Shown piece by piece: positions 1,540 through 54,752 of a stretch of DNA of 64,000 nucleotides. The translations under genes and the position numbers were made by a program. The notes under the pieces were generated by a model that was not told where the DNA came from, did no database searches, and saw nothing but the letters and a program-made list of their open reading frames with translations. This stretch comes from Escherichia coli (GTDB taxonomy: Bacteria; Pseudomonadota; Gammaproteobacteria; Enterobacterales; Enterobacteriaceae), in NCBI RefSeq assembly GCF_024298765.1, contig NZ_CP101210.1. The stretch is one strand, 5' to 3'. The first letter of the stretch is position 1; every line of letters begins with the position of its first letter.

Positions 1540-1932
1540 TCGTTGCCAAAATTCGGTTACTCCTTTACGAACGTTTTCGATATCGCTTTGCGTACCCATG
1601 AGTTCAAAGCGGTACAGCCATGGCACGCCGCATTTCCGGGCAATCACATCTCCGGCGCGGCCATATGCCTCACCAAAGTTGCGATTACCCGAAGCAATAA
1701 CGCCGCGCAGCAACGCCCGGTTATGCTCGTCGTTTAAAAAGCGAATGACCTGTCGTGGCACCGCGCCAGCCGTACCGCCGCCGCCGTAAGAGGGCACGAT
1801 CAGGATGTAAGGCTCGTCTACCTGAATCCGTTCCCGCTCATTGAGCGGGATGCGCACCGCGGGTAGCCCTAAACGTTCGATAAAACGCTGCGTATTTTCG
1901 GAGCTGCTGGAAAAGTAGACGAGCTGGCTCAT
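1522..1932 (-). CDS. nrdI: NrdI flavodoxin-like protein of the class Ib RNR operon
   Basis: 136-aa [28 protein letters not shown]...; position between nrdH and nrdE. Confidence 0.9.
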
Positions 1933-2174
1933 GCACTGGCAGCGTGTGGCGCTGGATGCAGACGATTGATCATGTCCGGGCGGAAACCAGACCAGCTAAG
2001 ATCGCCTGCAATCACAACCGGCAACTGACGAAAGCCCTGAGCACGCAGCGCTTCCGCCGCTTCAGGAACGCGATCGACATTAATCATTTCAAAGTCAAAG
2101 CCCCGGTTTTCCATCGCCCGTTTGGTGGCGTGGCACTGAACGCAATCGTTACGAGTGTAAATAGTAATGCGCAT
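1929..2174 (-). CDS. nrdH: NrdH glutaredoxin-like redoxin
   Basis: 81-aa ORF with CVQC redox motif ([21 protein letters not shown]...); overlaps nrdI start. Confidence 0.9.
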
Positions 2175-2366
2175 GATTCGTATTTCCGTTTAAAATGAAG
2201 ATACGGCGCGATGATACGCGTCGGGTTGTCTCTCTGTTGATACAGAGATACTAGATGTAGTTGAAAAAAGATTCAACCATACAATATATAGCAAATAGTG
2301 GTCGAAATTACCCTGGGTATAAGCGTGACGGGGTAGGGGGATTTTTGTGATTCACCAGGCAAAAAG

Positions 2367-2392
2367 AAACCCCGAAGCCAGGCTTCGGGGTC
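2367..2392. terminator. Rho-independent-type hairpin between ygaM and the nrdH promoter region
   Basis: aaaccccgaagccaggcttcggggt inverted repeat flanked by A/T runs. Confidence 0.5.
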
Positions 2393-2421
2393 AAAGACGC
2401 GTATTTATTATCATTATTGCA

Positions 2422-2763
2422 CTACGATTTGCGCATGCTTAACAGTGCGCCGATAAAAATACCTACCGCAGCTGCTGTACCCACGCTACACCAGGGTCTT
2501 TCACGAACAAAAGAATCCGCGCAGCCAACGGCATCACGCGCGGCTTGCTGGACGCGAGTACGACCATGCATTCGCGCCCTGGTTTCTTTCAGTAGAGCCT
2601 GCGCTTTACTGCGTGCGGCTTCAGCTTCCCCTTTGGCGTCGCTGCCCCAGGACTTCAATACAGATTCGAGACTATCAGCTAATTGATTGACATCATTCTG
2701 GATATCCTGCACGCCATCATCAACGTCGTTGCGGTTCGGTCGGTTAAACATATGATCCCCCAT
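2422..2763 (-). CDS. ygaM: YgaM, ElaB-family (DUF883) membrane-anchored protein
   Basis: 113-aa ORF with C-terminal TM segment (AAAVGIFIGALL); start may be the internal Met at 2751. Confidence 0.8.
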   Translation of the reverse strand: MGDHMFNRPNRNDVDDGVQDIQNDVNQLADSLESVLKSWGSDAKGEAEAARSKAQALLKETRARMHGRTRVQQAARDAVGCADSFVRERPWCSVGTAAAVGIFIGALLSMRKS

Positions 2764-2902
2764 TAGAATTCGATGTAATTTTCAGTGTAGACCATAATTT
2801 TCTTAACTGAGGTTCATCGCAGCTTTATGGACTTTTCTGAAAGCGTTGTGAATGCGCAATCAGGTAAGGTAGGCCCGCGGTTGATAATAACGAGGATCAA
2901 AT

Positions 2903-3247
2903 ATGTATTTACGACCAGACGAGGTGGCGCGCGTACTTGAAAAAGTCGGTTTTACTGTCGATGTGGTAACCCAGAAGGCTTATGGTTACCGCCGTGGGGA
3001 AAATTATGTCTATGTTAATCGCGAAGCGCGAATGGGACGTACCGCCCTGGTGATTCATCCAACATTAAAAGAACGTAGTTCAACACTGGCTGAACCCGCT
3101 TCCGATATTAAAACTTGCGATCATTATCAACAATTTCCGCTCTATTTAGCAGGCGAGCGACACGAGCATTACGGTATCCCGCATGGCTTTAGTTCGCGTG
3201 TTGCGCTTGAACGTTATTTGAATGGTTTATTTGGCGAAGCCAGTTAA
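2903..3247 (+). CDS. ygaC: YgaC, small conserved protein of unknown function
   Basis: 114-aa [35 protein letters not shown]...; synteny. Confidence 0.8.
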
Positions 3248-3250
3248 AGA

Positions 3251-3278
3251 CGCGACTGGCGATGCCAGTCGCGAAAAG
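3251..3278. terminator. Hairpin between convergent ygaC and alaE
   Basis: gcgactggcgatgccagtcgc inverted repeat. Confidence 0.4.
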
Positions 3279-3283
3279 AAGGG

Positions 3284-3733
3284 TCAGGCTTTTACCTGCT
3301 GGTAACGGCTGACTTTAAACAGTCGGCGGCAATAATCGAGGAAGTAGCCATAAACCGCCCCCATCAACATCGAAACAACGATGTTTGAACTGACCGCCGC
3401 CATAATCTGATGCCAGTCTGCGCCCACCACTAACAAGATCGCCACATACACCGGTGACTGGAACGTCACATAAGCCATGATATCCGCCAGATTTTTTATC
3501 CAGCCCGACGGGCTAACTTTGCGTGCTGCGCGCATAAACAGATCGCGGTACATACCGTATGGCCATGCAATTAAGATGTTTACCGGAATCGCTACCAATC
3601 TGGAATAAAAAGACTGTTCGAAGCTCATTCCGGAGAGGAAAACTTCAATACACATGTTCACGACAGAACAGTAAACAACCATCGCGAACGTATCTGCAAC
3701 TGCATGACGCAAGCGTGACTGCGGTGAGAACAT
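3284..3733 (-). CDS. alaE: L-alanine exporter AlaE
   Basis: ORF track gives 186 aa; recalled AlaE (149 aa) begins [16 protein letters not shown], placing the start at 3733. Confidence 0.8.
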
Positions 3734-14440: not shown

Positions 14441-14624
14441 AAAAAAGCCCGCATCAGCGGGCTTTAATGTCATAGGGAGTCGCGACTCCGTTGCGTATCC
14501 TTTTTTGTCTCCTCACCGTCTGGTCGGTGTCCTGCTGAGACTTATAACTTCCTGTTTTTGTTGGTGTAGTCCTTACACCGTCCAATCATGATTGGTGGAG
14601 CTGGCGGGAGTTGAACCCGTGTCC
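14441..14624. repeat. Left att-associated direct repeat: displaced copy of the ssrA 3' end (~33 nt) plus ~150 bp of ssrA-downstream sequence
   Basis: ~90% identical by eye to 54238-54423; homology to ssrA stops at 14624, after which AT-rich prophage sequence begins. Confidence 0.7.
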
Positions 14625-15050
14625 ATAGTTATGTAATTCATTGAATTTAAATAGCCAAATATTGTTGATTTTACAAGCGGCTCTTTTGCGGAACTTTTTC
14701 TGTCCTGTTACTGTCTTACTATTTATTTTAAAATAGTTTCATTTGGAATTAATGGTTTGTGGTTGCAGTTTCGGAGATAGATAGCATTTTTTGCTAAAAA
14801 ATATTTTTATAAAAAATGTGTGTAAAAATGATGTTATGCACAGATTTATGCACAGAGGCTTTGTGATAAACCAGATTGTTTTGGATAAGTTTGTTTTTTT
14901 GTGATTTGTCAACAATATTATTGACTCTTGTTACTAAAGTGAGTGTTTTCTAAGGTGGTCAGAAGTTGTCCCTTCATGTAATCTTATTAGCCATAAAGAA
15001 CAAAAAATAATTCAACATCATTACCAACTATTTGTAAGATAAGGTTTTTA

Positions 15051-15866
15051 ATGTTGCAGCCAGCAAAAAAAGCATCAGTTATTAGCGCGCGGCTAACGAA
15101 ATACCTCAAAGATGGAGTGAGGATTGATGACTTTAGCTTTAGAAGGATGTTACGTGAGATTGAAGCACTTAGAGATCCTGTCTCTGAGGACTATCTTTTA
15201 GCGTTGGTCTATGGTGCACATGGCCAAGTGAATGAGGCGATAGGCTTCTTTGAGCGTTCCTTGCAGGTATGCCATAATGAGGTTGTTGCAAAGAATTTTC
15301 TTGTTTTCTTGTCAGATTACGGTACGTTGAAGAAAAGCTTTGAAACAAGCATTAAGCTTGCTGAAAGCTTCATATCCCCGTTTATTTATCTTCAAGCTTA
15401 TGAAAACTCCCTCTTTATGGGGAAGATGGCGTTGGCGGAGAAGTATTTCCAGTCATACTCTAAATTGTTCGGAGATAAGGAGCCTGAAAAAATGGACAAC
15501 AATCTTGATGAAGTTGTTTCCCAGGTCGAATCCTTTAAGCAACGTGCCGATCTTTCTGGTTTAGAATATGAACTTATTTTCAATAATGTAGCCAATGTCA
15601 TGGATTCTCAGAAGGTTCATCTTTCGGGAATGCGTTTTTATAATATTTCGGAAGAGAAAGTGAATGCGATTGTATTCATGACAAAGTCTTCTGATGCTGA
15701 ACAAATCGCTGATATGAATATTGAGCTTGCTTTTTCAATGGCTGAGCACGATTGTTTAGTCGGTAAAGATTTTGCTGTTTGGTTTGAATGTAAAGACACA
15801 CATATTGAGCAGAATGCTATCTCCGAATTAGGTCTGATTACCCGGAGGGTTGCACATGCCGGTTAA
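15051..15866 (+). CDS. Hypothetical protein (271 aa), first gene of a two-gene cargo operon beside attL/int; function unknown
   Basis: Clean ORF, soluble and helical-looking, no motif I recognise; AT-rich by eye; AT-rich upstream leader. Confidence 0.55.
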   Translation: MLQPAKKASVISARLTKYLKDGVRIDDFSFRRMLREIEALRDPVSEDYLLALVYGAHGQVNEAIGFFERSLQVCHNEVVAKNFLVFLSDYGTLKKSFETSIKLAESFISPFIYLQAYENSLFMGKMALAEKYFQSYSKLFGDKEPEKMDNNLDEVVSQVESFKQRADLSGLEYELIFNNVANVMDSQKVHLSGMRFYNISEEKVNAIVFMTKSSDAEQIADMNIELAFSMAEHDCLVGKDFAVWFECKDTHIEQNAISELGLITRRVAHAG

Positions 15867-16239
15867 TAGTCAAGATTTTCTCGGTTTTGCAAAAGACTGT
15901 CATCAACGTAATGACGAAATCGGCTATCGAAATGCTATAGCAAGATCCTACTATGGCGCTTACCATCATGTCTTGCCTTGTATGGTAAACGGGCCGAAAG
16001 ACAGTCATCAGGGGCTAATCAATTATTTGCAGGGCGATGCTTCAAGAGGAAGTGAAGTATATGAAGCTAGATATCTAAAAGGGATTAGTTTTATCCTGAG
16101 TCAACTTAAAGCTCAGAGGATTGTTGCAGACTATCGACTTGATCAATCGGTCACTTCTAAACAGTCTGAAGTTGCGATTCTAACAACTGAGAGGCTCTTT
16201 GCTAAGTGTACGGAAATGCTTAAATCGAGAGCCTCCTAA
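15850..16239 (+). CDS. Hypothetical protein (129 aa), overlaps upstream gene by 17 nt; contains an R-x6-H dyad (RSYYGAYHH)
   Basis: Overlapping start implies translational coupling; followed by a terminator hairpin at 16246-16270. Confidence 0.5.
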   Translation: MHMPVNSQDFLGFAKDCHQRNDEIGYRNAIARSYYGAYHHVLPCMVNGPKDSHQGLINYLQGDASRGSEVYEARYLKGISFILSQLKAQRIVADYRLDQSVTSKQSEVAILTTERLFAKCTEMLKSRAS

Positions 16240-16245
16240 TTGATA

Positions 16246-16270
16246 AAGCCACTTAAGTGGCTTTTTTTGT
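16246..16270. terminator. Hairpin plus T-run between the convergent cargo operon and int
   Basis: aaagccacttaagtggcttttttt. Confidence 0.6.
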
Positions 16271-17425
16271 GATATTGCTGGTCGTATTACCGTCATATTC
16301 CTTTAAATATAAACCATAATGACGAAATAACATTTCCGGCCCTTTATGCCCCATTTGAGCTGCAAGCCAAAACAGGTTTGCTCCCCGGCTGATATGGCGG
16401 GTGGCGAATGTATGCCTAGTTTGATATGGATTTCTGTAACGAATACCTGCTTTTCGCAATGTTGGCACCCATGCTTTTTTCCTGATTGCATCAGCACTTG
16501 CCCAAGGCTTATTGGTCTTTGGATCTTCAAAGACAGTAGTATCCTTCATGAATGTAAATGGCTTCTGATTTATCAGCGCCAACATTGCCTCTTCTGTCAG
16601 TTCAACTTTCCGAGTACCTGCTTTTGTCTTTGTCCCTTTGATAACACCGACAACACTTGCGCTCTGGACATGGGCAGTTTTTCCAACAAAGTCGATATCA
16701 CGCCATCGAAGGGCACATAATTCAGAACTACGCAGGCCTGTATGTATAGCGAACCGGAACAGATTTTCCCATTGTTTGTTTCCGGCTGCTGCTAGTAATG
16801 CATCAACTTCTGCTGGTGATAGCGGATCAACTACGTAGCTGCTTTCTGCTTCTGACTTATCACTTTGGTAGCGCGAAGCTGTTACTAACGATACGGGGTT
16901 AATTTGAAGTACCCCATCGGTCACGGCTTCATCAAGTGCTGACCGCAGGAAAGATAACTGGTTGCGAATTGTTTTTAAGGTCGTTTTCTGATTTTGAATC
17001 CACGCTTTCAGGGTTGCTGGTGTTAATTCACTTGCAGGGCAAATGTGAAGTGAGGCTAACGCACTACGGCATTTTTTATAGCCACCAATCGTAGAGGGTG
17101 AAAGTTTTCTTGTTTCGCAGATTTCAAGATATTCGTCCAGGTACATCTTTACCGTTTTGCCTGCAGCAGCATTACCAAAAATTTTCAAACGAGCAGAACG
17201 GGGAAAATATTCTGCATAAATGAATGTTCCCCTTTCGATCTTATTATGGATTTCGCCGAGTGTACGCTCGGCGTATTTAATGTTCTTTGGTGTTACTTCC
17301 AGATTGGAAAGCGGCTCACGACATCTAACTCCTTTGTAGGTGAAAGTTATATTGATCGTTTCTCCCTGGCGGTGTTTCCTGATTGTTACGCCGCGCGGTA
17401 GTTTGAGCAGTTTTGTCTGGCCCAT
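16253..17425 (-). CDS. int: Phage integrase, tyrosine recombinase family
   Basis: 390-aa ORF with C-terminal catalytic region (...HTGLRSSELCALRWRDID...RHTFATRHISRGANLFWLAAQMGH...); adjacent to xis and the att region. Confidence 0.85.
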   Translation of the reverse strand: MGQTKLLKLPRGVTIRKHRQGETINITFTYKGVRCREPLSNLEVTPKNIKYAERTLGEIHNKIERGTFIYAEYFPRSARLKIFGNAAAGKTVKMYLDEYLEICETRKLSPSTIGGYKKCRSALASLHICPASELTPATLKAWIQNQKTTLKTIRNQLSFLRSALDEAVTDGVLQINPVSLVTASRYQSDKSEAESSYVVDPLSPAEVDALLAAAGNKQWENLFRFAIHTGLRSSELCALRWRDIDFVGKTAHVQSASVVGVIKGTKTKAGTRKVELTEEAMLALINQKPFTFMKDTTVFEDPKTNKPWASADAIRKKAWVPTLRKAGIRYRNPYQTRHTFATRHISRGANLFWLAAQMGHKGPEMLFRHYGLYLKEYDGNTTSNITKKAT

Positions 17426-17633: not shown

Positions 17634-18524
17634 TTAACGAATAGTGTCGTTACTTTGAAGTACAGCAAATGCCATTAATACTTCTAAAGTATATCTTCTA
17701 TAAAATTTAACAAAACCAACATAGAAAACATAGACGAAGAAAAAGCTAAGCATTATTGAAAGTAAACTATAAAGATAATCACTATGAGTACATAATCGAT
17801 AAATAAAGGTTGGAACTGATACCCAAAATGAAATTATAAAGATTAAACATATGTTTCTGCAAAAACCATATAATGCAACATAGTTTTGAATTTTTGTTTG
17901 ATGTTGTTTTGAAAACTCATAAACATAATGATATGCCAATCTGAAGAGATCATCATCAAGTCCGTTTTTATCTTGTAATAATTGGCGATTTGTTATGAAC
18001 TTTTTCTCATAACCTTCTTTGATCATTAACCATGTTGTATTAGCTAAATGAAATGGTAGAGATTGAGAATAACATAGTTTTTGTGTTATAAAATCCCATA
18101 GTATTATTGGGCATAATACGCATTTGATTATGCGATTCTTTATTTTTGTTTTTTTATCAGCGCTTCTCTCATCGCATGATGGGCTACAAATGCTTTCTGA
18201 GGTATCTATCAATTTTTTAAATAGATATTTGGAAGGATATCCTAATTCTTTATTCATGTATTTTTCGATAAAAAATGCTGACGTGATAGAAATAAAATGT
18301 CCAGCTATATAAGATATAATAACTATTGAAGCGTAGTTCAAAATGCCAAAGATTTGACTTTGACCTCTGAGCAATTCACTTAAGTCAATAACAATATCTA
18401 GATCGAATGTCAAACCACAGAAATACATTAATAGGATAAAAAAACCACCTGGTATTAAATATCCAAGAAAGTCATAGAATGAGAATGGATTTTGATTCAT
18501 TGTTGCTCTCCAATAATTTTTCAA
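17634..18524 (-). CDS. Hypothetical integral membrane protein (296 aa; ~2 N-terminal and ~2 C-terminal TM helices around a soluble core)
   Basis: Strikingly AT-rich by eye compared with neighbours; hydrophobic stretches FFILLMYFCGLTF, IVIISYIAGHFISITSAFFI, ICLIFIISFWVSVPTFIY, LLSIMLSFFFVYVFYVGFV. Confidence 0.55.
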   Translation of the reverse strand: MKNYWRATMNQNPFSFYDFLGYLIPGGFFILLMYFCGLTFDLDIVIDLSELLRGQSQIFGILNYASIVIISYIAGHFISITSAFFIEKYMNKELGYPSKYLFKKLIDTSESICSPSCDERSADKKTKIKNRIIKCVLCPIILWDFITQKLCYSQSLPFHLANTTWLMIKEGYEKKFITNRQLLQDKNGLDDDLFRLAYHYVYEFSKQHQTKIQNYVALYGFCRNICLIFIISFWVSVPTFIYRLCTHSDYLYSLLSIMLSFFFVYVFYVGFVKFYRRYTLEVLMAFAVLQSNDTIR

Positions 18525-54237: not shown

Positions 54238-54423
54238 AAAAAGCCCGCATAAGCGGGCTTTTGTGTCACTCGAGAGCCGCGGCTCCTTTGCGTATCCTTT
54301 TTTATCTCCTCACCGTCTGGTCGGTGTCCTGCTGAGACTGCTAACTTCCTGTTTTTGTTGGTGTTGTCCTTACACCGTCCAATCATGATTGGTGGAGCTG
54401 GCGGGAGTTGAACCCGCGTCCGA
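54238..54423. repeat. Right att-associated direct repeat (ssrA 3' end plus phage-borne downstream arm with terminator)
   Basis: ~90% identical by eye to 14441-14624; hairpin plus T-run (read on the minus strand) at 54238-54262. Confidence 0.7.
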
Positions 54424-54752
54424 AATTCCTACATCCTCGGTACTACATGCTTAGTCAGTCTTTACATTCGCTTGCCAGCTGCGGACGGACACGCCACTAA
54501 CAAACTAGCCTGATTAAGTTTTAACGCTTCAACCCCAGGCAGGGCTTCCACGCGATCTCTTTTGGGTTTGACCTCTCTTGATCCCCGTCCTAAGAGCGGA
54601 GGCTAGGGAGAGAGGGCTCTAAGCAGGTTATTAAGCTGCTAAAGCGTAGTTTTCGTCGTTTGCGACTATTTTTTGCGGCTTTTTACGAGGCCAACCGCCC
54701 CTCGGCATGCACCTTGGGTTTCGCAAATCCCGTCGAATCCAGAATCAGCCCC
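54390..54752 (-). ncRNA. ssrA: tmRNA (SsrA)
   Basis: Reverse complement matches the recalled E. coli tmRNA from GGGGCTGATTCTGGATTCGACGGG... to ...GGTTCAACTCCCGCCAGCTCCACCA. Confidence 0.95.

What the first reader, a model, noticed from the sequence alone, without database searches (positions are those of the whole stretch)
15051..16239. Uncharacterised two-gene overlapping cargo operon between attL and int
A 271-aa and a 129-aa ORF overlap by 17 nt (translational coupling), have their own AT-rich leader (14630-15050) and terminator, and sit in the attL-int slot where temperate phages commonly carry defence, exclusion or toxin-antitoxin morons. Neither protein matches a family I can name. The small protein has an R-x6-H dyad (RSYYGAYHH), which could be a HEPN-type RNase motif or chance. 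The large-then-small coupled layout resembles RnlAB/LsoAB-type toxin-antitoxin pairs, but I cannot see sequence similarity. This is my top candidate for an undescribed system.
Basis: partly seen in the sequence, partly recalled or inferred. Interest (0 to 1): 0.75.

Follow-up and report, generated by a model that had tools for sequence, protein, structure and literature searches.

The report
Prophage TPR-partner plus HEPN nuclease cassette
Next to the integrase of an E. coli prophage sits a mobile two-gene cassette, a repeat-containing partner protein and a small HEPN-type putative RNA-cutting enzyme, that looks like an untested toxin/anti-phage module of a familiar general kind with a new partner protein.

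Summary
The two overlapping genes are real and lie between the prophage att core (14593-14619) and int. The small gene most likely starts at ATG 15856, giving 127 aa and an 11-nt overlap, not 129 aa and 17 nt.

Both proteins can be placed. The small one (B) is a HEPN-domain protein of the AF0298/UPF0332 "HEPN-T" type. The canonical motif position reads R88-x3-D92-Y93, with an alternative invariant His51.

The large one (A) has TPR-like repeats plus an orphan alpha/beta C-terminal domain. It has no conserved catalytic residues.

A and B are always adjacent, in the same order and usually overlapping, in 68 of 68 viral loci found through B and 3 of 3 testable loci found through A. They co-diverge (r=0.91). 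The cassette occupies many different accessory-gene slots in phages, including the P2 old/tin defence hotspot. In sister E. coli prophages the same att-int slot holds PD-Lambda-5.

The best reading is that A holds or gates a HEPN RNase effector, as a toxin-antitoxin or abortive-infection module. This is the opposite polarity to RnlAB. No experiment exists, and the pair is absent from PADLOC v2. I rate it a new variant of a known kind.

The parts
14593..14619 (.). Prophage att core: 27-nt exact duplicate of the 3' end of ssrA. It marks the prophage end next to the cassette.
   Evidence: Exact second copy at 54390-54416 at the intact tmRNA gene; 0 expected by chance.
14620..15050 (+). AT-rich leader upstream of gene A. 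It contains a tandem TTATGCACAGA x2 (14834-14856) and an 18-bp palindrome GTCAACAATATTATTGAC (14908-14925). Promoter not identified. The region may also hold attP arm sites.
   Evidence: GC 0.29-0.31; repeats; no + strand sigma-70 match at 9 of 12 or better.
15051..15866 (+). Gene A, 271 aa: putative partner, antitoxin or sensor. It is a family of ~250-270 aa proteins found in prophages of Gamma- and Betaproteobacteria.
   Evidence: phrog_17809 E=1.5e-37; ~90 clusters in the exhaustive search; AF2 pLDDT 91.6; AFDB50 relatives all uncharacterised.
15129..15464 (+). TPR-like helical-repeat region of A (about aa 27-138).
15555..15800 (+). C-terminal alpha-beta-beta-alpha-beta domain of A (about aa 169-250), an orphan domain. 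N223 is invariant and W244 nearly so. No catalytic-type residue set is conserved.
   Evidence: Model secondary structure; no Pfam or PDB sequence match for the isolated domain profile; conservation.
15843..15847 (+). Shine-Dalgarno GGAGG for gene B, inside the 3' end of gene A. It implies translational coupling.
   Evidence: Sequence; GGAG/GAGG-type motifs at the same place in most homologous cassettes.
15856..16239 (+). Gene B, 127 aa: HEPN-domain protein of the AF0298/UPF0332 'HEPN-T' type, the putative RNase effector or toxin.
   Evidence: Family profile vs PDB: 9xbd 'HEPN domain-containing protein' E=2e-7, 2hsb AF0298 E=7e-3. AF2 pLDDT 93.7. Top Foldseek hits are HEPN structures. 4 of 27 family members hit Pfam HEPN at E<=1e-3.
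15943..15966 (+). It lies in helix 2. It is invariant in this family but not a conserved unit across HEPN-T relatives.
   Evidence: Invariant in 44 of 44 sequences. AF0298 has the His but not the Arg; 9xbd has the Arg but not the His.
16006..16008 (+). Codon H51: invariant His in the insert between core helices 2 and 3. It is the predicted alternative catalytic His.
   Evidence: 44 of 44 conserved; aligned to the conserved His of AF0298 and 9xbd; role proposed for this clade in PMC3710099.
16117..16134 (+). Codons R88-I-V-A-D92-Y93 at the C-terminal end of core helix 3. This is the position of the canonical Rx4-6H motif, with Asp in place of His and an invariant Tyr.
   Evidence: Helix map; R88 and Y93 in 44 of 44 and D92 in 43 of 44 sequences; aligned to R...DY of AF0298 and 9xbd.
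16245..16272 (+). Intrinsic-terminator-like hairpin AAAGCCACTTAAGTGGCTTT plus T-run, shared with the convergent int gene.
16253..17425 (-). Context: tyrosine integrase of the prophage, convergent with the cassette.
   Evidence: The same int (>=90% nt identity) is in 411 E. coli genomes, but only 43 carry the cassette.

Best explanation
This is a self-contained, horizontally mobile two-gene module carried as prophage cargo.

Gene B encodes a small HEPN-fold protein. It most likely acts as a dimeric, metal-independent endoribonuclease with a non-canonical active site: Arg88 at the canonical motif position, His51 from the helix2-helix3 insert, and further invariant polar residues E21, R25, N26, R30, H37 and Y93.

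Gene A is translated first and is coupled to B. It encodes a non-enzymatic TPR-like protein with an orphan C-terminal domain. A probably binds B and keeps it inactive, in the manner of an antitoxin. It possibly uses the TPR surface to sense a phage- or stress-derived protein, or is simply lost when host gene expression is shut off. Freed B would then cut cellular RNA (tRNA or rRNA) and stop translation, aborting infection by a competing phage or killing cells that lose the element.

Shown here: the fold and family of B, the TPR region of A, strict co-occurrence, conserved order and coupling, co-divergence, and mobility among accessory-gene slots and defence hotspots.

Inferred only: RNase activity, toxicity, neutralisation by A, the trigger, and anti-phage function.
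For: B is HEPN:
- Profile vs PDB gives 9xbd E=2e-7 and AF0298/2hsb E=7e-3.
- The AF2 model has pLDDT 93.7, and top Foldseek hits are 2hsb, the sacsin HEPN domain, 2q00, 1ufb, 4nqf, 1o3u, AbiV and a HEPN-MNT toxin.
- Pfam HEPN hits 4 of 27 members.
- B carries the signature PMC3710099 describes for AF0298-like HEPN: His of the motif replaced, plus an alternative conserved His in the helix2-3 insert.

Precedent for activity: a HEPN without Rx4-6H that uses a separated His and Arg is an active, toxic rRNA/tRNA nuclease. It is held in check by a partner protein that wraps around it (type IX retron Kva2). B weakly matches that PADLOC model, HEPN_IX, E=1.4e-3.

A is not an enzyme: the only invariant polar residue is N223. 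It has a TPR region and an orphan C-terminal domain.

A and B form a unit:
- 68 of 68 IMG/VR loci found through B (29-100% identity) have an A homologue directly upstream on the same strand. One of these is cut at the locus end.
- 3 of 3 testable loci found through distant A homologues have B directly downstream.
- Junctions overlap or abut, with a Shine-Dalgarno inside A.
- Pairwise identities of A and B correlate at r=0.91, Mantel p=0.001, with A evolving faster (31% vs 46% mean identity).

The cassette is mobile cargo. It is found in these slots:
- att-int
- Q antiterminator to lysis genes
- tail chaperone to tape measure
- between the small and large terminase subunits
- inside a baseplate module
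- a P2-like Vibrio phage, between portal/ogr and gpA, which is the old/tin defence hotspot

The local slot is variable. The same int is in 411 E. coli genomes but the cassette in only 43. Sister prophages carry other cargo there, including PD-Lambda-5 (PD-Lambda-5_B E=6e-124).
Against: - There are no experimental data for this pair or any homologue.
- It is not in PADLOC v2, and it was not found in the DefensePredictor supplements.
- The canonical catalytic His is absent, and some HEPN domains of this kind may be non-catalytic RNA or nucleotide binders.
- No A-B fusion proteins were seen (lengths).
- No complex model could be computed, so physical interaction is only inferred.
- A lacks the DNA-binding domain typical of type II antitoxins.
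- No promoter was identified.
- Location in hotspots is guilt by association.
Confidence: 0.55

Rival explanations
1. It is a plain addiction-type toxin-antitoxin pair. It stabilises the prophage (post-segregational killing or stress response) and has no role in sensing or blocking other phages. A is a labile antitoxin and B is the toxin.
For: Gene order is antitoxin-like first and toxin-like second, with overlap and coupling. The HEPN-T clade is classically paired with MNT antitoxins in TA systems. The pair sits at the prophage end next to int.
Against: At 271 aa with TPR repeats, A is much larger than needed for a simple antitoxin and has no DNA-binding domain. The cassette occupies known defence hotspots: the P2 old/tin locus, and the slot that holds PD-Lambda-5 in sister prophages. 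TA and abortive-infection roles are not mutually exclusive.
Confidence: 0.2
2. B is a non-catalytic HEPN domain that binds RNA or nucleotides. The pair regulates something in the phage's or host's own biology, such as lysogeny control, translation or late gene expression, rather than acting as a toxin or defence.
For: The canonical His of Rx4-6H is replaced by Asp. PMC3710099 notes that HEPN domains lacking the motif may act by binding. Many insertions lie inside late or structural operons.
Against: Nine invariant polar or aromatic residues (E21, R25, N26, R30, Y32/33, H37, H51, R88, Y93) persist across 28-100% identity, which suggests an active site. The H+R arrangement is catalytically active in the type IX retron HEPN. 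The cassette moves between unrelated phage types and slots, which is not expected of a core regulator.
Confidence: 0.12
3. It is a counter-defence or inter-phage weapon that serves the phage during its own lytic growth. For example, it might degrade host or rival RNAs or titrate a host immune protein through the TPR domain. It would not be a lysogen-protecting system.
For: In several phages the cassette sits downstream of Q or inside late operons, so it would be expressed on induction. TPR domains are protein-binding.
Against: In the window and many relatives it lies outside the late operons, convergent with int, with its own terminator. This is the usual arrangement of lysogen-expressed accessory genes (morons). 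No similarity to known anti-defence proteins was found.
Confidence: 0.08
4. A is a degenerate or novel nucleotidyltransferase-like antitoxin. It neutralises B by covalent modification of Tyr93, in a type VII HepT/MntA-like mechanism, rather than by binding.
For: B belongs to the MNT-associated HEPN-T clade and keeps an invariant Tyr right after the motif position (R-x3-D-Y). A PDB relative was deposited as wild type and as a Tyr-to-Phe variant at exactly this residue (9xbd/9xbc). There is a marginal RsfS (NTase-like fold) hit to the A C-terminal region, E=0.09.
Against: A has no conserved GS...DxD or any acidic catalytic set; only N223 is invariant. There is no Pfam NTase hit. The alpha-beta-beta-alpha-beta topology does not match the MNT core, and the RsfS alignment disagrees with the predicted secondary structure.
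Confidence: 0.05

Closest known systems
AF0298/UPF0332-type HEPN domains ('HEPN-T' clade of Anantharaman et al. 2013; PDB 2hsb, 9xbd)
   Same: Same fold. Same hallmark residues: aYYa..H in helix 2, a conserved His in the helix2-3 insert, and R...DY at the end of helix 3. Same size, about 125-130 aa.
   Different: Those proteins are typically standalone or paired or fused with a minimal nucleotidyltransferase (MNT). Here the partner is a TPR-like protein. Sequence similarity is remote (E about 1e-7 to 1e-2 with a family profile; none with the single sequence).
Type VII HepT/MntA (HEPN-MNT) toxin-antitoxin systems
   Same: Two overlapping genes, partner first and small HEPN second. The HEPN is the presumed RNase toxin. 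A Tyr adjoins the motif.
   Different: There is no MNT nucleotidyltransferase. The canonical Rx4HxY is replaced by R-x3-D-Y. Neutralisation is more likely by binding.
Type IX retron (Retron-Kva2) HEPN effector with its WH partner
   Same: The HEPN lacks Rx4-6H and uses a separated His and Arg. It is toxic alone, cleaves rRNA and tRNA, and is kept inactive by a partner protein that wraps around it. B gives a weak PADLOC HEPN_IX hit.
   Different: There is no reverse transcriptase, ncRNA or winged-helix partner here. Similarity is only E=1.4e-3 over 40 residues.
RnlAB / LsoAB
   Same: A two-gene, HEPN-based toxin-antitoxin pair with anti-phage activity, with a large gene followed by a small one.
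   Different: The polarity is opposite. In RnlAB the large protein carries the HEPN toxin domain and the small downstream protein is the antitoxin (background knowledge; see Table 1 of PMC3710099). Here the small downstream protein is the HEPN.
Prophage single-protein HEPN abortive-infection systems (HepS of Gifsy-1, Tha of S. aureus prophages, AbiV)
   Same: Prophage-borne HEPN RNases that protect lysogens. HepS and Tha are triggered by structural proteins of incoming phages. AbiV also has an atypical motif.
   Different: Those have sensing and nuclease functions in one protein, or an RNA antitoxin in the case of AbiV. Here a separate TPR protein is the obligatory partner. No sequence similarity was detected.

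Membership tests
HEPN superfamily | Four-helix up-and-down bundle HEPN fold | tested here: met
   AF2 model pLDDT 93.7 with helices 5-17, 21-42, (51-64 insert), 71-93, 101-126. Top Foldseek PDB hits are HEPN structures, probability up to 1.0. Profile-sequence hits to 9xbd and 2hsb. Pfam HEPN hits 4 of 27 members.
HEPN superfamily | Canonical Rx4-6H motif at the end of core helix 3 | tested here: not met
That position reads R88-I-V-A-D92-Y93. Arg is invariant and the His is replaced by Asp in 43 of 44 sequences.
AF0298-like HEPN-T subfamily | Arg kept at the motif position, Asp in place of His, and an alternative conserved His in the insert between helices 2 and 3 | tested here: met
   R88, D92 and H51 are invariant or nearly so and align with the corresponding residues of AF0298 (2hsb) and 9xbd. 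The feature is defined in PMC3710099.
HEPN RNases | Metal-independent endoribonuclease activity and toxicity | not testable with these tools
   Needs expression and biochemistry. The only precedent is a different non-canonical HEPN.
[quoted passage not shown] | Adjacent minimal nucleotidyltransferase (MNT) antitoxin with a GS...DxD catalytic motif | tested here: not met
   The upstream partner is TPR-like plus an orphan domain. No NTase Pfam hit. No conserved acidic motif.
[quoted passage not shown] | AMPylation of a Tyr next to the HEPN motif | not testable with these tools
   An invariant Tyr93 exists. Modification would need mass spectrometry.
RnlAB/LsoAB | Large multidomain toxin with a C-terminal HEPN domain, followed by a small antitoxin | tested here: not met
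   The large protein A has no HEPN domain. The HEPN domain is the small downstream protein.
Classical type II toxin-antitoxin | Antitoxin with a DNA-binding domain (HTH, RHH or AbrB) that autoregulates the operon | tested here: not met
   No DNA-binding domain was detected in A by Pfam, NCBIfam, profile or fold searches. A palindrome exists in the leader, but its binder is unknown.
TPR-repeat proteins | Tandem helix-turn-helix repeats of about 34 aa | tested here: met
Known anti-phage defence systems (PADLOC-DB v2.0.0) | Significant match of the component proteins to a system model | tested here: not met
   A has no hit. B has only HEPN_IX at E=1.4e-3 and an orphan methyltransferase at 2.8e-3.
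Type IX retron | Reverse transcriptase, ncRNA, HEPN and winged-helix protein in one locus | tested here: not met
   Neighbours are the att site and int. No RT ORF is present, and there is no Rfam retron hit.

The most novel reading that the evidence does not exclude
The pair founds an uncharacterised class of prophage immunity modules. A dedicated TPR-plus-orphan-domain protein replaces the MNT antitoxin of HEPN-T systems and acts as a protein-sensing gate. Binding of a conserved component of an invading phage to the TPR surface would release a non-canonical (His51/Arg88) HEPN RNase and cause abortive infection. The family is spread across prophages of Gamma- and Betaproteobacteria, including the UPEC model strain CFT073 (c3205 and its upstream neighbour).
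Probability: 0.4. Interest if true: 0.65.

Novelty: new variant of a known kind. Interest (0 to 1): 0.52.

Why it matters
If confirmed, this would add a widespread, compact (1.2 kb) two-gene system to the list of prophage-encoded defences.

It would give a second experimentally tractable example of a HEPN nuclease that works without the canonical Rx4-6H motif.

It would also show that the ancient HEPN-T toxin can swap its nucleotidyltransferase antitoxin for a protein-binding TPR partner. That is a route from simple toxin-antitoxin pairs to sensor-effector immunity.

The pair is present in well-studied strains such as CFT073, so it is directly testable. It also fills an 'unknown function' gap in two PHROG families.

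Tried and rejected
- **Single-sequence searches:** Pfam gave nothing for B and only sub-threshold TPR hits for A. NCBIfam gave nothing meaningful. PDB gave nothing for B and noise for A.
- **DNA search of the cassette against 50,697 phage records:** no match. Protein-mode search found only six phages with B homologues and one with a detectable A homologue, all annotated hypothetical.
- **PADLOC:** no system match.
- **Profile of the isolated A C-terminal domain against PDB and Pfam:** only noise, such as designed repeat proteins and RsfS at E=0.09. I rejected the RsfS hit because the aligned secondary structure disagrees.
- **Literature:** no paper mentions WP_000941198, WP_001145022 or the RefSeq locus tags. 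A search for 'c3205/c3206' returned only catalogue numbers. DefensePredictor supplements contain neither the accessions nor sequence fragments. The Gifsy-1 HEPN papers (STM14_3211/HepS) describe a different, single-gene system.
- **UPF0332+HEPN text search:** nothing. The PDB codes 9xbd and 9xbc are not yet linked to a paper.
- **Third RNA component:** considered and rejected. There is no Rfam hit apart from the tmRNA fragment, and no long tandem repeats.
- **Promoter:** the consensus scan gave no + strand candidate in the leader.
Full report
**1. What is in the sequence**

The window is E. coli chromosome. The genes lhgO and glaH (csiD) end at about 13.9 kb, and an intact tmRNA gene (ssrA) lies at 54390-54752 on the minus strand. 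A 27-nt exact copy of the ssrA 3' end occurs at 14593-14619 and again at 54390-54416, with none expected by chance. These copies bracket a prophage of about 39.8 kb integrated in ssrA.

Just inside the 14.6-kb end lie three features:
- an AT-rich stretch (GC 0.29-0.31);
- a 271-aa ORF at 15051-15866, here called A;
- a second ORF ending at 16239, here called B.

A hairpin plus T-run follows at 16245-16264, then the convergent integrase at 16253-17425 (minus strand) and an excisionase-like gene.

The start of B needs correcting. ATG 15856 is preceded by GGAGG at the right distance. It is the start that NCBI's pipeline (PGAP) calls in CFT073. It also coincides with the conserved N-terminus (M-P/S-V-N/T-S) of all homologues. 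B is therefore 127 aa and overlaps A by 11 nt. The 129-aa, 17-nt version needs an unsupported TTG start. I could not confirm an own promoter, because the consensus scan found no plus-strand candidate in the leader.

**2. Gene B is a HEPN-domain protein**

Other evidence places it clearly:
- Some homologues are labelled UPF0332 or HEPN by their sources.
- A profile of the family hits PDB 9xbd/9xbc 'HEPN domain-containing protein' (E=2e-7) and AF0298/2hsb 'UPF0332' (E=7e-3).
- 4 of 27 diverse members hit Pfam HEPN at E<=1e-3 and 12 of 27 at E<=0.1.
- The AlphaFold model is confident (pLDDT 93.7).
- Its best Foldseek matches in the PDB are HEPN structures: 2hsb, sacsin HEPN, 2q00, 1ufb, 4nqf, 1o3u, 1wol, AbiV and a HEPN-MNT toxin.

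**3. Where the catalytic signature is**

In HEPN domains the Rx4-6H motif sits at the C-terminal end of core helix 3 (PMC3710099). In B that position (helix 71-93) reads R88-I-V-A-D92-Y93. Arg and Tyr are invariant and Asp nearly so across 44 non-identical homologues with 28-100% identity.

Anantharaman et al. describe exactly this variant for AF0298-like HEPN-T and AbiV proteins. The His is missing (a conserved Asp takes its place) and a second, strongly conserved His comes from the insert between helices 2 and 3. B has that His (H51, invariant) in the 43-50 loop/51-64 insert, and it aligns with the His of AF0298 and 9xbd.

Among relatives, AF0298 keeps the His but not the Arg, and 9xbd keeps the Arg but not the His. 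It is therefore not the HEPN motif. It may still line the pocket together with E21, R25 and N26.

A 2026 preprint shows that an Rx4-6H-less HEPN can be an active toxin. The type IX retron HEPN uses a separated H64 and R122. It is toxic alone and cleaves rRNA and tRNA. Its partner protein wraps around it and occludes the active site. B's only PADLOC hit is a weak one to that model (HEPN_IX, E=1.4e-3).

**4. Gene A**

A belongs to a family of about 90 clusters (at 50% identity) of 245-270-aa proteins. The family corresponds to phrog_17809, of unknown function.

The AlphaFold model is confident (pLDDT 91.6) and shows three parts:
- eight helices (7-138) forming TPR-like repeats;
- a long connecting helix (145-166);
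- a compact alpha-beta-beta-alpha-beta domain (170-247).

Across 50 homologues the only invariant polar residue is N223. There is no GS...DxD or other catalytic constellation. A therefore looks like a binding protein, not an enzyme and not a nucleotidyltransferase. AFDB50 shows the same two-domain fold in Enterobacterales, Vibrio, Shewanella, Idiomarina, Pseudoalteromonas, Pseudomonas-group, Burkholderia-group and Janthinobacterium proteins, all uncharacterised.

**5. A and B are one unit**

- Starting from B, 68 IMG/VR loci (29-100% identity) were recovered. Every one has an A homologue immediately upstream on the same strand; the single apparent exception is cut at the locus edge.
- Starting from four distant A homologues, all three loci that extend far enough have a B-type HEPN immediately downstream. 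In one of them the gene caller had missed it.
- The junction is an overlap or a gap of a few bases, commonly 1, 4, 10, 11 or 14 nt of overlap, with a Shine-Dalgarno inside the end of A.
- Pairwise identities of A and B are strongly correlated (r=0.91, Mantel p=0.001). A diverges faster, at a mean of 31% versus 46%.
- No fused A-B protein was seen.

**6. The cassette is mobile cargo in hotspots**

The same two genes sit in quite different slots of unrelated phage genomes:
- between att and int, in E. coli, Enterobacter, Citrobacter-like and other hosts;
- between the Q antiterminator or late activator and the lysis genes;
- between tail chaperones and the tape-measure gene, sometimes beside anti-repressor genes;
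- between the small and large terminase subunits;
- after tail protein L, and inside a myovirus baseplate module;
- in a P2-like Vibrio phage, between portal/ogr and replication gene A.

The last slot is the old/tin locus, which Rousset et al. showed to be a defence hotspot.

In E. coli, the integrase of this prophage (>=90% nt identity) occurs in 411 of 5426 complete genomes, but the cassette occurs in only 43. In those 43 it is always single-copy, chromosomal and >=99% identical. Sister prophages carry other cargo in the same slot:
- a 259-aa hypothetical protein;
- a three-gene set with a STAS-like protein (UTI89, ATCC 11775);
- an ATPase plus methylase that matches PD-Lambda-5, a named defence system in PADLOC (PD-Lambda-5_B E=6e-124).

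**7. Mechanism**

*Shown here:* B has a HEPN fold with a conserved non-canonical polar constellation. A is a non-enzymatic TPR protein. The two are strictly linked, in conserved order, coupled and co-diverging. The cassette behaves as accessory cargo (a moron) that lands in defence hotspots.

*Inferred:* B is the effector, a dimeric RNase that uses R88 and H51. A is made first and in proportion, binds B and keeps it silent. Infection or loss of A synthesis releases B, which cuts tRNA or rRNA and stops translation. This would be abortive infection or addiction. The TPR surface is a natural candidate for sensing a phage protein, by analogy with other prophage HEPN systems triggered by structural proteins (HepS, Tha), but nothing here tests that.

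I put 0.55 on this model. The rivals are:
- a pure addiction toxin-antitoxin pair (0.2);
- a non-catalytic regulatory HEPN (0.12);
- a lytic-cycle weapon or counter-defence (0.08);
- covalent neutralisation by a cryptic NTase-like A (0.05).

**8. Comparison with known systems**

The closest family for B is the AF0298/UPF0332 HEPN-T clade, and the membership features tested here are met. The closest system logic is type VII HepT/MntA, but its defining MNT partner is absent. RnlAB/LsoAB is not a good analogue because the polarity is reversed.

The pair is not in PADLOC v2. It was not found in the DefensePredictor tables and it is not mentioned in the searchable literature. RefSeq calls both proteins 'hypothetical'. 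UniProt's automatic names already say 'Tetratricopeptide repeat protein' and 'HEPN domain-containing protein'.

**9. Verdict**

This is a real, conserved, mobile two-gene module. It is a new variant (TPR partner in place of MNT) of a known kind (HEPN toxin/effector pairs). Its function is untested. The interest is moderate: specialists would expect such a thing in a prophage hotspot. Its breadth, its presence in CFT073 and its non-canonical active site make it a good experimental target.

Noticed in passing
window 17634-18524 (-): A 296-aa predicted membrane protein lies just beyond xis in a very AT-rich patch (GC 0.26-0.30). It matches phrog_12528 (unknown function, E=9e-174) and weakly matches PADLOC Csx27, the type VI-B CRISPR-associated membrane protein (E=1.4e-5). 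Sister prophages (THO-003, UK_Dog_Liverpool) have two small genes here instead, so this may be a second variable accessory-gene slot.
   Followed up: partly
window 14834-14856 and 14908-14925: The leader contains a tandem direct repeat TTATGCACAGA x2 (12-nt spacing) and an 18-bp near-perfect palindrome GTCAACAATATTATTGAC. They lie 215-330 bp from the att core. They could be integrase arm-type or IHF sites of attP, or an operator for the cassette.
   Followed up: no
L080 689-3401 (E. coli UK_Dog_Liverpool, NZ_CP031653.1); L081 and L082 about 1570-3450 (ATCC 11775, UTI89); L079 2633-3412 (THO-003): The same att-int slot of near-identical prophages (int 96-97% identical) carries alternative cargo. 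One is PD-Lambda-5 (methylase plus AAA ATPase). One is a three-gene set that includes a STAS-like domain protein with no PADLOC hit. One is a single 259-aa hypothetical protein. The STAS-like trio is another uncharacterised candidate system, present in UTI89 and the E. coli type strain.
   Followed up: partly
L077 3498-3893 (Klebsiella phage ST405-OXA48phi1.3, MK416008.1): The B homologue is a continuous ORF that matches the HEPN family profile (E=6e-34). The GenBank record splits the region into two short 'hypothetical protein' CDSs, which is probably an annotation error.
   Followed up: partly
L006-L008 1-1589 (Serratia fonticola prophage): An ApeA-like HEPN protein (PF18862/PF18739, weak) lies about 4 kb upstream of the A-B cassette, near the Q antiterminator. 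A DNA methyltransferase sits between them in L008. Defence-type genes may cluster in that late-region slot.
   Followed up: no
L083 3785-4192: The B homologue downstream of a distant A homologue was not called as a gene in the source assembly (a 500-nt 'empty' gap). Small HEPN partners of this family may be under-annotated.
   Followed up: yes
PDB 9xbd / 9xbc (no paper found): The closest solved relative of B was deposited both as wild type and with the Tyr of the R...DY motif changed to Phe. This suggests someone is studying modification or catalysis at exactly the residue equivalent to Y93.
   Followed up: partly
loci (upstream regions of gene A): Cassettes in att-int contexts share short upstream blocks (TGTAAyCTTA... 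and AAGATTGC) about 45-85 nt before the A start codon. Cassettes downstream of Q share a different block (GCTGGwTAGrTrCACAyCTTGTGArCA). These may be regulatory elements or simply shared phage ancestry.
   Followed up: no
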